Assembly: GCA_963703315.1 (NCBI GenBank)
Contig: OY969811.1
Location: forward strand, 1,568,001 to 1,632,000
DNA length: 64,000 bases
DNA from: an uncultured cyanobacterium
Lineage (GTDB): Bacteria; Cyanobacteriota; Cyanobacteriia; Pseudanabaenales; Pseudanabaenaceae
Reading direction: 5' to 3'
Position numbers: made by a program. Positions 21,001 to 24,000 of the stretch are shown piece by piece. Position 1 is the stretch's first letter. Each line of letters opens with the position of its first letter.

Positions 21001-24000
21001 GAGTTATTCCCACGAGCATAACCAACAATAAAAATACCACCAACCAATACAGAACAAATTGCCAAGATTCGCAGCTTTGATGAGGTAAACATATAAGAAG
21101 CCTCAGATTTCGATTACCTTTAATTTACGCTAATTAGCCTTGAGATCTTTCGTGGTTACAAATTTAGTAACGAAATAGCTAAGTTGCTAGGTGCAATTAA
21201 ATATAAAACCCCAAAAGCTGTGGCGCACGCGCAGTGTGCGCCACAGCTTTTGGCTCTGTTTTTTAATTATGCCCCACTACTTATGGATTAACTTCCTGCT
21301 CTGTCCAGTTGCCTTGCTCGTCCCGTATATATATCCAGCGATTTTGAGGTGTACCGCGCAGTTCAAGGCGATCGACTTCGACAGGTTCTAGCAATAGCAA
21401 GCAAAAATAAGGCAAAGGTTGATCGGCACTCGGTGGAGCGACTTCAGGAAAATCAATACGTGGTTCTCTGGGATGCGCCCATGCAAATTGCAGCCACGCA
21501 GGTTCTGATAATGCTTGCCATGCAGACTTTCGGGCAGATTGCAACTCTAAATCTGGACATTCCTGATCAATTAACGTGAGTTTGCCTAAAATCCGAAATT
21601 GCGATCGCGTTTTTGGAAAATACCAACTTATTTCCGCCCAAGGATTTGCTGCAATTTGAGCCGCTTTTTGACTACGAATATCCGTAACGATTTTGAGACA
21701 ATCTTGGTAGCGATCGCTATTTTCTAAAAATCCTCTAAATACAACTGTGCGATTGCGAGGACGATGATCTAAACCAATTGTGGCTAATTGAAAAAACCTT
21801 GCTTCGGGTTGATTACGGTGCTGATGTAAACTTCGAGCTAGATGCGATCGCCACATAAAACCATTTAGAATAGAACTGTGCTTAGCACAGTTCTATTCTA
21901 AATGGTTTTATGGCGAATTTGTGGATTGAGGGTGGTAGTCGTAGTGGCAAGACTGAACGAGTGGTTCAGCAGTTTTGTGACTGGGCAGAAACTGACTTTG
22001 CCAAAAAAGCTAATCCTCAAGCAGCTTCCCAAAAGGTTTTAGTTTTAACCGTTGATTCTGAGCAAAGACGCAAACTGAGCGATCACCTGATTGTCACCAC
22101 GCATGGGCGCTATCCTGTCACTGCGGTTACACCCTTGAGCTTTTTTCGCGATGAAGTGCGTTTATTTTGGACATTATTAGTCAAAAACCTTAACTTAAAG
22201 GCTCAGTTTCCTCTGCTTCTAAGAGTTGAAAATGAGCAGGAACTCACCAATCAAGTCTGGAAAGATCGCCTTGAAATGGGAACTCTGCAAAGGTCGGGAA
22301 TTGGACAGGAAAGGCTGGTACGCAGATTGTTAGATTTATTTTTGTTAGCCGCCTATAGTGGTCGAGAGATTACCGAAATTCCGACAATTCTCAATGCAGG
22401 TATTGAAACTAATCCCTTAGAATCTGCTCTTGATAATGGAGAACAAAATTCTCTATCCACAAGTTCCGTATTAGAGCAATGGCAAGAAATCGGGGAAGCT
22501 TTGCAAGAATGGCGGGACTATTGCTGGGAAAGAGGCTTGCTGACCTATGGCATTATTACCGATTTATTTGCCCATCATTTACTTCCAAATCTTCAATATC
22601 AACGAAGACTCAAGCAACGATTTCAATATATGATCGTTGACCGTGCCGATGAAATGCCAGCGATCACTTGTGATTTGTGCAAGTTTCTATTACAAAATGG
22701 CGCTCAAGGAATGGTTACGTTTAATCCTGATGGATCGGCAAGACTAGGACTAGGTGGTGATCCTGAATATTGGCAAGAAATTAAATCTGAATGTGAAGTA
22801 ATCAAGTTACCCCATGCCCAAAACACGTTAGGCGATGAAATTGGAGCATCAGTTTTAGAAGTTGTCCGCGAACCAATTTTACAGTTTATCGAACCCTATC
22901 CACAGGTTTATGCGATTGAATCAGTTTCTCGCGCCAAACTGTTCCGTAATGTTGCGGAAACGATCGCCTCAGCGATCGCTTCAGGTGAGATAAAAGCCAA
23001 CGAAATCGCCATTATTGCCCCCGGATTAGATAACATCGCCAAATATGCGATCGCCGAAATTCTCCGTAAAAAAGAAATCAATGTTAATCCCCTTAACGAT
23101 CAACGCCCCTTATCCTATTCTGCCCAAGTGCGATCGCTGCTTACTCTGATCACATTGGTCTATCCCAATCTTGGTAAATTAGTAAGTCGCGATCACATTG
23201 CCGAAATGTTGGTTGTGCTGATCGAGGCGATCGATCCAGTTCGGGCAGGAATGCTAGCTGACTATTGCTTTGCACCACATCCAGAGCATCCACAACTACT
23301 AGCATCAGAAACCTATAACCAATGGAATCGCCTCGGTTATGAAGCAACACAAGCCTATGCTCAATTACGAAAATGGATTGAACAACAATCACCTAAAGAC
23401 ACACCACTTCTATTCATAGATCGGGCAATTCAAGCCTTTTTTAAACCCCGTAAACTCAGCTATGAAAGTACTTCCACCTTACAATCATTAATCGAAACTG
23501 CTCAATATTATTGGCAGCTTGGCTATCGCCTCGATCAAGAAGATCCCATTATTCTCGAAAATTTTATTCAACTGATTCGACAAGGCACTGTCACTGCTAA
23601 TCCTTATGCCCCCAATCTCCCCCAAGATAGCGTTGTCCTTGCTACGATCTTCCAATACCGCATGGCAAGACTTTCCCACCGTTGGCAATTTTGGCTAGAT
23701 GCTAGTTCTGACCTTTGGCTACAGGGTGGAGCCGCATCTCTATTTGGTGCGCCACTCTTTCTCAAAGGTTGGCATGGAAAACTATGGACGACTGAGGATC
23801 AAAGCAAAGCCGATATGCAACGCTTAGAGAAGTTAATCAGAGATTTGCTCGATCGCACTGATGAGCGTCTATATCTCTGTCACAGCGAACTTAGTACTAA
23901 TGGTCAAATCCAAAATGGAGTCTTGAGTCCATTAATTGAGGTTAGTAGCACAAATTCATGAAAAAAGATGCATTTTGGAAGCCCGAATGCTCGCTATTTA

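What a model noticed while it worked through the whole genome (the two positions that open the first line are those of the whole stretch)
21910..23961. A three-piece AddAB-like helicase-nuclease: pseudo-helicase, stand-alone Fe-S RecB nuclease and nuclease-less SF1A helic [...]
The unannotated gene g01503 (683 aa) is a degenerate SF1 helicase of the AddB/RecC type. With g02403 (C1:2540985-2541815, a free RecB-family nuclease with an AddB-type four-cysteine iron staple) and g02407 (C1:2546565-2548877, an intact SF1A helicase with no nuclease domain) it forms a three-chain equivalent of AddAB. This is probably the missing double-strand-break resection machine of most cyanobacteria.
Evidence so far: g01503 has no Pfam/NCBIfam/Swiss-Prot row, yet is found in 55 of 61 cyanobacterial genomes. 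Its model (pLDDT 87.5, call 69) matches SF1 helicases, best TM-scores with AdnB 0.68 and AddA/AddB 0.65/0.59; Walker B and motifs III/VI are degenerate. g02403 keeps C30, C245, C248, C254 and D143/D156-x-K158 in 12 of 12 orthologues and folds like RecB/AddA/Cas4 nucleases. In 22 chosen genomes, all 10 with a close g01503 have both partners, all 6 without it have neither, and RecC occurs only in 3 of those 6; this genome has no RecC. Predicted g01503-g02403 complex: ipSAE 0.87, best of 3 controls 0.00, runs agree in at least 79% of contacts, partner pLDDT 79 (mark reached by 116 of 157 solved, 2 of 215 [...]
(Added by a program. Inside this text positions count along the whole contig: contig position 1,568,001 is position 1 of the stretch shown here. 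"Call 12" and the like, gene names such as g00115 and contig names such as C1 are that model's own, and its searches are not shown. The text may have been shortened before it was handed on; [...] marks where a part breaks off. The agent that wrote the report below was given it as the finding of a first reader that could run no searches.)

Follow-up and report, generated by a model that had tools for sequence, protein, structure and literature searches.

The report
Four-part bacterial DNA end-chewing machine
An unnamed cyanobacterial gene encodes a dead helicase that, with a working helicase and two separate nucleases, appears to form a four-part machine for chewing DNA ends, which would fill the gap left by the repair enzymes RecBCD and AddAB that most cyanobacteria lack and explain why losing these genes makes a model cyanobacterium easier to transform.

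Summary
The ORF is real (683 aa) and folds as an SF1A helicase without the Walker B glutamate (0 of 109 homologues). In Bacillota, Anaerolineae-like contigs and non-photosynthetic Cyanobacteriota the genes run pseudo-helicase, helicase, nuclease, usually RecJ; one family fuses the first two. Among 59 chosen oxygenic-class genomes, the 51 with the pseudo-helicase have nuclease 51, RecJ 51, helicase 49, RecC 0; the 8 without have none, and 7 have RecC. A helicase/pseudo-helicase model scored 0.69 against controls 0.00. By synteny, the Synechococcus elongatus orthologues are four of the top six among 1,886 genes, beside Argonaute, whose loss helps plasmid maintenance, as addAB loss aids Thermus transformation. 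Against a main repair role: no UV fitness defect, and some Bacillota also carry AddA. No biochemistry exists. Verdict: a new four-part architecture that works like AddAB/AdnAB; break repair is inferred, not shown.

The parts
21910..23961 (+). g01503, pseudo-helicase subunit (683 aa; SF1A fold over the whole chain, no nuclease domain).
   Evidence: family of 520 clusters at E <= 1e-30; partners:
21931..21954 (+). Walker A-like motif, residues 8-15, kept in most oxygenic cyanobacteria, Bacillota and Anaerolineae-like members, lost in several non-photosynthetic relatives
   Evidence: GK[TS] in 94 of 109 rows of A2; 21 of 26 (A4) and 13 of 15 (A5)
22636..22653 (+). degenerate Walker B / motif II, residues 243-248: no catalytic glutamate after the aspartate
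   Evidence: 0 of 109 rows have DE at 244-245; the partner helicase has EDEAQD in 56 of 56
23233..23250 (+). conserved D-P-V-R-A-G patch, residues 442-447, in the predicted 2B subdomain; centre of the modelled interface with the helicase
   Evidence: lowest-error contacts; D, P, V, R invariant in A6 and D, R in A5, D, R, A in A4

Best explanation
Four genes form one DNA end-processing machine built like AddAB/AdnAB but with every nuclease on its own chain. SHOWN by computation or published genetics: the helicase has every SF1A motor motif; the pseudo-helicase has the same fold without the catalytic glutamate; the two are fused in one family and modelled to bind through their 2B/2A subdomains; the four genes are neighbours in distant phyla, are kept and lost together in oxygenic cyanobacteria, and share a knockout phenotype. 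INFERRED from what is known of RecBCD/AddAB/AdnAB (recalled): the dimer loads on a double-stranded end, the motor pulls the 3' strand through while the dead subunit acts as clamp, the Fe-S RecB-type nuclease cuts one emerging strand and RecJ (5'-3' single-strand exonuclease) eats the displaced 5' strand, doing the job of the second nuclease of AddAB. The outcome is destruction of unprotected DNA ends (incoming DNA, broken plasmid forks), short fragments that Argonaute can use as guides where it is present, and 3' tails for RecA, backed up by RecFOR. Which strand the Fe-S nuclease cuts, and whether a Chi-like signal exists, is open.
For: Operon order pseudo-helicase/helicase/nuclease in 19 of 21 Bacillota loci (the other 2 end at a contig edge), RecJ next in 16 of those 19; in 9 of 13 non-fusion loci of other Cyanobacteriota classes (2 cut off, 2 lone), RecJ beside 8 of the 9; fusion in 10 of 10 loci of family f28, nuclease next in 9; all four genes in L201 and L206. 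Helicase downstream on the same strand in 21 of 25 Anaerolineae-like loci with >= 5 kb of room. Nuclease followed by RecJ in 14 of 29 oxygenic loci. Co-occurrence 51/51, 51/51, 49/51 versus 0/8, RecC 0/51 versus 7/8. 27 module helicases form one clan apart from 11 PcrA/AddA-like paralogues (SH 100, FastTree). Fold closest in geometry to AdnB (607 residues, 4.6 A) and the helicase-like part of AddB (591, 5.4 A) versus 8.6-12 A for most UvrD/PcrA chains. Complex score 0.69, best of 3 controls 0.00, runs agree in >= 49% of contacts, partner pLDDT >= 72; mark reached by 116 of 157 solved and 2 of 215 mismatched pairs; own alignments, cut chains, and likeness to solved AddAB/AdnAB may contribute. 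Fusion model pTM 0.76 over 1200 residues. S. elongatus 0517, 0992, 2515, 2273 are ranks 6, 5, 4, 3 of 1,886 in the RSF1010 screen and all 'high-confidence positive' in the transformation screen, while the paralogues pcrA 1518 (-1.24) and recJ 1886 (-0.48) go the other way. Thermus addAB loss raises transformation 30- to 1000-fold with mild damage sensitivity (PMC9751324). Canonical AddA over its cut-off in 1 of 20 module-positive versus 19 of 30 module-negative Bacillota.
Against: No UV fitness cost for any of the four mutants at three doses (estimates within 0.07 of zero; uvrC -1.37, but recF only -0.26 and recN -0.19); all four non-essential. The module coexists with canonical AddA in G201, G202 and G007, with long AddA-like proteins below the cut-off in 9 of 20 positive Bacillota, and apparently with RecC in G004. 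G103 (99% complete) has none of the four, no RecC and no AddA. The helicase was not found in drafts G161 and G181. Losses among oxygenic genomes are about two lineages, so the exclusion with RecC is not many independent events. The nuclease mutant has a larger effect (2.7-3.4) than the other three (1.1-2.4). Operon RecJs are not one clade. The two screens come from one laboratory's library. In the RSF1010 screen almost all mutants were negative, so pcrA's negative value is not specific. The S. elongatus orthology rests on synteny and lengths through G049, not on named sequences, and the paper calls 0992 a PD-(D/E)XK-like protein, a domain I do not find.
Confidence: 0.66

Rival explanations
1. 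Same module, different substrate: it acts on stalled or collapsed forks, gaps or incoming single strands (fork clearing, plasmid surveillance) and is not the route by which breaks are resected for RecA.
For: Phenotypes are all about foreign DNA; no UV cost; coexists with AddA; the mBio authors read UvrD and RecJcy as fork factors.
Against: A dead SF1A partner with a RecB-type nuclease is the layout of end-resection enzymes; not found where RecC is present in 7 of 7 f18 genomes; Thermus AddAB has the same foreign-DNA phenotype.
Confidence: 0.15
2. A pathway, not a four-chain machine: only the helicase/pseudo-helicase pair binds stably; nuclease and RecJ act separately on the unwound strands.
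For: Genes scattered in oxygenic cyanobacteria; larger effect of the nuclease mutant; RecJ missing beside 3 of 19 Bacillota and all 10 fusion loci and replaced in one group.
Confidence: 0.12
3. A dedicated guide factory for Argonaute.
For: [quoted passage not shown]
Against: A Piwi domain was found in only 12 of the 51 module-positive oxygenic genomes, not in this genome, and in 0 of 20 Bacillota (that search missed the S. elongatus control, so it undercounts).
Confidence: 0.04
4. Unrelated housekeeping genes whose co-occurrence reflects shared ancestry and genome shrinkage in one clade.
For: Only about two loss events among oxygenic genomes; 7 of the 8 negatives are one family of 1.7-2.7 Mb genomes.
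Against: Operons in three phyla, the fusion, the modelled interface on conserved residues and the shared phenotype.
Confidence: 0.03

Closest known systems
AddAB (Bacillus subtilis type; PDB 3u44, 4cei)
   Same: Active SF1A motor plus an inactive helicase-like subunit; iron-staple RecB-type nuclease; inactive gene first in the operon (AddAB order recalled); model matches AddB residues 2-699; loss raises transformation in Thermus.
   Different: Neither helicase chain carries a nuclease; one free PD-(D/E)XK nuclease instead of two fused ones; a RecJ is added; AddA model scores 66.7 bits against a cut-off of 707.65.
AdnAB (mycobacteria; PDB 6ppr, 7sjr, 9np6)
   Same: Two UvrD-sized SF1A modules; best geometric match (AdnB TM 0.67, 4.6 A; AdnA 4.5 A).
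   Different: Both Adn subunits end in a nuclease domain (recalled); reported only from Actinobacteria (PMC6452273).
RecBCD
   Same: Motor plus dead helicase partner; the motor's 2B subdomain grips the dead subunit in the model, as RecB does RecC (recalled); near-exclusive distribution in oxygenic cyanobacteria.
   Different: No RecC match, no second motor in the operons, nuclease not fused.
Clostridiales UvrD + Cas4-like operon (PMC5704561)
   Same: An unfused UvrD and pfam12705 nuclease in one operon, proposed to act in repair (section read); probably two genes of this module.
   Different: The section names no pseudo-helicase, RecJ or cyanobacterial link; its figure could not be seen.
S. 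elongatus cas4 / uvrD / recJcy / Synpcc7942_0992 (PMC10653904) and recBcy sll1686 (PMC5101192)
   Same: Very probably these same genes.
   Different: Treated as separate hits of unknown role; no complex, operon or AddAB likeness proposed in the passages read. That sll1686 is this nuclease was not tested.

Membership tests
SF1A helicase (motor, g02407) | motifs I, II, III, IV, V, VI intact | tested here: met
   each motif in 56 of 56 orthologues
SF1A pseudo-helicase (g01503) | four-subdomain SF1A fold without the Walker B glutamate | tested here: met
   VIA Z 20-28 over residues 1-683; DE in 0 of 109; lack of ATPase itself not measured
AddAB | motor fused to a C-terminal RecB nuclease (AddA) | tested here: not met
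   770 aa, no nuclease family, TIGR02785 66.7 vs 707.65 bits
AddAB | inactive subunit fused to an Fe-S nuclease (AddB) | tested here: not met
   model aligns only to AddB 2-699; nuclease is a separate ORF in all fetched loci that hold it
AddAB | 1+3 cysteine iron staple in the nuclease | tested here: met
   C30 in 43 of 43, C-terminal triad in 37 of 43; cluster not measured
AddAB | heterodimer of active and inactive helicase chains | tested here: inconclusive
   model 0.69 vs control 0.00 and natural fusion support it; not shown
AddAB | Chi-regulated resection from DNA ends | not testable with these tools
   needs biochemistry; E. coli Chi octamer not enriched here, 175 vs 180 expected
AdnAB | both subunits carry a nuclease domain | tested here: not met
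RecBCD | RecC subunit | tested here: not met
   TIGR01450 no match in G000 or the other 50 module-positive oxygenic genomes searched
RecBCD | RecD second motor | not tested
   no search run
RecJ (fourth gene) | DHH + DHHA1 + OB domains, TIGR00644 over cut-off | tested here: met
Gabija / Argonaute-associated Cas4 (ACE1) / CRISPR Cas4 | linkage to gajA, ago or cas1-cas2 | tested here: inconclusive
   only generic PADLOC hits; no such neighbour among the L001 ORFs scanned; no tree against ACE1 or Cas4 was built

The most novel reading that the evidence does not exclude
This is a fourth, old architecture of bacterial end-resection machine beside RecBCD, AddAB and AdnAB: a nuclease-free motor/pseudo-motor dimer that recruits two stand-alone nucleases, a RecB/Cas4-type Fe-S enzyme and its own RecJ. 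It is the default break-processing enzyme of nearly all oxygenic cyanobacteria outside the RecBCD-bearing clade, of their non-photosynthetic relatives and of parts of Chloroflexota and Bacillota, and it is the unknown source of Argonaute guides and a main barrier to transformation in cyanobacteria.
Probability: 0.5. Interest if true: 0.92.

Novelty: new variant of a known kind. Interest (0 to 1): 0.84.

Why it matters
Papers state that most cyanobacteria lack RecBCD and AddAB and that the source of Argonaute guides in such species is unclear (PMC12094033; PMC5101192), and 88% of surveyed bacterial genomes encode one of the three known systems, leaving about 12% without (PMC6452273). This names four genes, with viable mutants already in the S. 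elongatus library, that make both questions testable at once. It also turns four unexplained screen hits into one mechanism, suggests host deletions that could ease engineering of cyanobacteria, and offers a modular form from which fused helicase-nucleases could have arisen or into which they split.

Tried and rejected
Sequence and profile searches of PDB gave nothing significant for g01503 (Adn chain A at E 0.3). Foldseek with the fusion model returned single helicase chains only and says nothing on the interface. A maximum-likelihood tree of 84 pseudo-helicases did not finish and was dropped. A Chi-like octamer was not found by a simple Markov test (not strand-oriented, so weak). The C-terminal profile of operon RecJs barely detects cyanobacterial RecJcy, so a shared extension is not claimed. 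The label 'proton extrusion protein PcxA' for 0992 in the S. elongatus tables was rejected: the CemA protein is the divergent neighbour 0991. Window neighbours (PNPOx-like gene, kinase/receiver/metallo-lactamase trio) were not seen beside orthologues (1.5-kb flanks) and were set aside. Earlier scan findings: none returned. bioRxiv 10.1101/072470 and PMC11063404 passages held nothing on these genes; the former's supplements (cisplatin and cofitness data) could not be seen and may bear on the repair claim. The AdnAB structure paper was not held, so which Adn subunit bears the Fe-S cluster was not checked.

Full report
Observation. The ORF at 21910-23961 (+) encodes 683 residues. It reaches no Pfam cut-off and no NCBIfam family, and matches no PDB sequence. 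Its nearest named homologues are hypothetical proteins of Pseudanabaena.

Fold and motifs. With 109 homologues the model has pLDDT 93.8 and pTM 0.91. It matches SF1A helicases over its whole length. UvrD/PcrA/Rep chains score highest in Z (up to 28) but mostly at 8.6-12 A; AdnB (Z 22.9, 607 residues, 4.6 A), AdnA (21.0, 552, 4.5 A) and AddB residues 2-699 (20.8, 591, 5.4 A) superpose more tightly; TM-scores are AdnB 0.67, AddA 0.65, AddB 0.62. Walker A survives (GK[TS] in 94 of 109) but no row has the Walker B DE pair, so I infer a dead motor that may still bind nucleotide. The helicase keeps all six motifs tested in 56 of 56 orthologues, and 27 module helicases form one clan apart from 11 PcrA/AddA-like paralogues (FastTree SH 100). 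The nuclease keeps its catalytic residues and C30 in 43 of 43 and the C-terminal cysteine triad in 37 of 43, the 1+3 iron staple described for AddAB, AdnAB and Cas4 nucleases (PMC12094033, passages).

Operons and a fusion. In a draw of 200 phylum genomes, 85 of 93 same-class genomes had a strong hit and 97 of 107 genomes of other classes a weak one. I fetched the surroundings of 23 other-class genomes. In 10 of 10 loci of family f28 the pseudo-helicase and helicase are one ORF of about 1,290 residues, with the nuclease next in 9. In 9 of the 13 others the order is pseudo-helicase, helicase, nuclease; 2 end at a contig edge after the helicase and 2 hold the first gene alone. A profile search found 520 clusters at E <= 1e-30, with members named Anaerolineales, Negativicutes, Clostridiales, Natroniella and Anaerosolibacter. 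The family was found in 20 of 301 Bacillota genomes (only 4 candidates scored per genome). Of 21 Bacillota loci, 19 show the three genes in that order, often with overlapping ends, and 2 are cut off. In 80 metagenome loci related to an Anaerolineales-named cluster, the helicase lies downstream on the same strand in 21 of the 25 with 5 kb of room.

A fourth gene. A RecJ (744-788 residues where complete) follows the nuclease in 16 of the 19 Bacillota loci with all three genes, lies beside 8 of the 9 other-class operons and completes L201 and L206; it was not seen beside the 10 fusion loci. In oxygenic genomes it still follows the nuclease in 14 of 29 loci, from three families. This genome's copy is C1:119134-121446; it groups (SH 100) with such a nuclease-adjacent RecJ and not with housekeeping RecJs, though the operon RecJs of one non-photosynthetic group fall elsewhere.

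Co-occurrence. I chose 80 genomes: 51 same-class with the pseudo-helicase (this one and 50 of the 85, covering every family), all 8 without, and 21 others. Of the 51, all have the nuclease and the long RecJ, 49 the helicase (not found in drafts G161 and G181, even by profile) and none RecC. Of the 8, none has any member and 7 have RecC. These 8 are one family plus G103, so about two events; G103 has neither system nor AddA. In Bacillota canonical AddA passes its cut-off in 1 of 20 positive and 19 of 30 negative genomes tested (30 of the 281 negatives), but long AddA-like proteins below the cut-off occur in 9 of the 20 (8 of the 30), and G201, G202 and G007 carry AddA beside the module. G004 has RecC and candidates for three members. 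Replacement is a tendency, not a rule.

The untested contact. Helicase residues 8-623 with pseudo-helicase residues 300-683 scored 0.69, best of 3 controls 0.00; runs agreed in at least 49% of contacts, partner pLDDT at least 72; the mark was reached by 116 of 157 solved and 2 of 215 mismatched pairs, counts that hold only roughly with my own alignments, and likeness to solved AddAB/AdnAB may contribute. The interface joins helicase 492-602 to pseudo-helicase 426-478 plus parts of its 2A region, centred on the conserved 442-447 patch. The first 1,200 residues of a natural fusion modelled at pTM 0.76 with a low-confidence linker, which I read as a defined arrangement of the halves (inference).

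Published genetics. PMC10653904 (passages, section 8 and rows of supplementary file 2 read) lists six genes whose loss helps RSF1010 maintenance in S. elongatus: ago, rpoD2, cas4 (2273), uvrD (2515), recJcy (0517) and 0992; they are the top six of 1,886. I link four of them to this module through G049: its pseudo-helicase faces a 1,266-nt CemA gene across 72 bases exactly as 0992 faces 0991 (the pseudo-helicase ORF itself is 1,971 against 1,998 nt); its nuclease (768 nt) and long RecJ (2,328 nt) equal 2273 and 0517 in length; its helicase converges on a gene of argF size as 2515 does. CemA homology was tested (35 of 39 non-own loci); the other neighbours were judged by size, orientation and recalled sequence look. 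G049's proteins are 33-44% identical to this genome's. No named S. elongatus sequence was aligned, and the paper describes 0992 as PD-(D/E)XK-like, which my model does not show. Three named genes would fall in the top six by chance with p about 2e-8; RecJ was added after I had seen the screen. In the transformation screen (PMC7125226, supplementary rows) the four score +1.1 to +2.7, ago +5.2, the other recJ -0.48; same laboratory's library. Thermus addAB mutants likewise transform 30- to 1000-fold better and are damage-sensitive only at the highest doses (PMC9751324, abstract and two sections).

Evidence against a main repair role. In a UV screen (PMC9659335, supplementary rows only) the four mutants are neutral at three doses; uvrC is -1.37, recF -0.26, recN -0.19, so the screen is weak for recombination genes. 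Transcripts of the three rose 2- to 3-fold two hours after UV, as did pcrA 1518; I did not see the genome-wide spread. All four are non-essential. A Piwi domain was found in 12 of the 51 genomes and not here (an undercount), so the module is housekeeping-like rather than an Argonaute accessory.

Mechanism and standing. Most likely (0.66) a motor/dead-motor dimer unwinds from a DNA end while a free Fe-S nuclease and RecJ degrade the strands; steps from end loading onward are inferred from recalled knowledge of AddAB, AdnAB and RecBCD. It works like AddAB but fails the fused-nuclease tests, so it is not filed as a member. Six literature searches listed no description of the complex; the nearest are an unfused UvrD/Cas4-like operon in Clostridiales (PMC5704561, passages and section 8; figure unseen) and the separate screen hits. 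PMC5101192 and PMC6452273 were seen as passages only. The library lacks most subscription journals, so prior mention cannot be excluded.

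Noticed in passing
G000 C1:833641-837747 (L295, L296): The housekeeping recJ is in two ORFs: a 388-aa DHH half, then a Uma2-family gene, then a 708-aa ORF whose DUF4145 N-terminus is in frame with the DHHA1/OB half. Possibly an insertion that split the gene, or a naturally split RecJ.
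   Followed up: partly
window 24288-28108 (+): Three close-packed genes just downstream: a protein with a MORC-like and a kinase-like HATPase domain, a receiver-domain protein and a metallo-beta-lactamase-fold protein; looks like an inserted defence or signalling cassette.
   Followed up: no
G103 (whole genome, 99% complete, 4 contigs): An oxygenic-class genome in which none of the four genes, no RecC and no AddA were found, and only one recJ.
   Followed up: partly
L001:5787-5816 and orthologues: The nuclease ends in a short conserved acidic tail (I-x-E-[IV]-x-hydrophobic) in most oxygenic members and L201, absent from the fusion family; a candidate docking peptide.
   Followed up: no
L101-L104, L106, L114: Six nucleases depart from the three-cysteine C-terminal pattern, five with a histidine just upstream; perhaps a changed metal site.
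   Followed up: no
L003-L031, L109: The pseudo-helicase gene neighbours pcxA (CemA family) in 35 of 39 non-own loci, head to head in those whose layout was read, but not in this genome.
   Followed up: partly
L001, helicase residues about 280-307 (within 11950-12192): A short proline/glycine-rich stretch inside the helicase, skipped in alignments to several orthologues, with a similar-reading ORF on the opposite strand, suggesting an in-frame inverted-repeat element.
   Followed up: no
L235:4986-8372 (G161): One of the two genomes lacking the module helicase carries a 1,128-aa UvrD/PD-(D/E)XK fusion of another clade.
   Followed up: partly
G181 C82:24412-25110: The long RecJ lies in an open frame of 1,222 codons, about 450 longer than usual; possible intein or fusion.
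   Followed up: no
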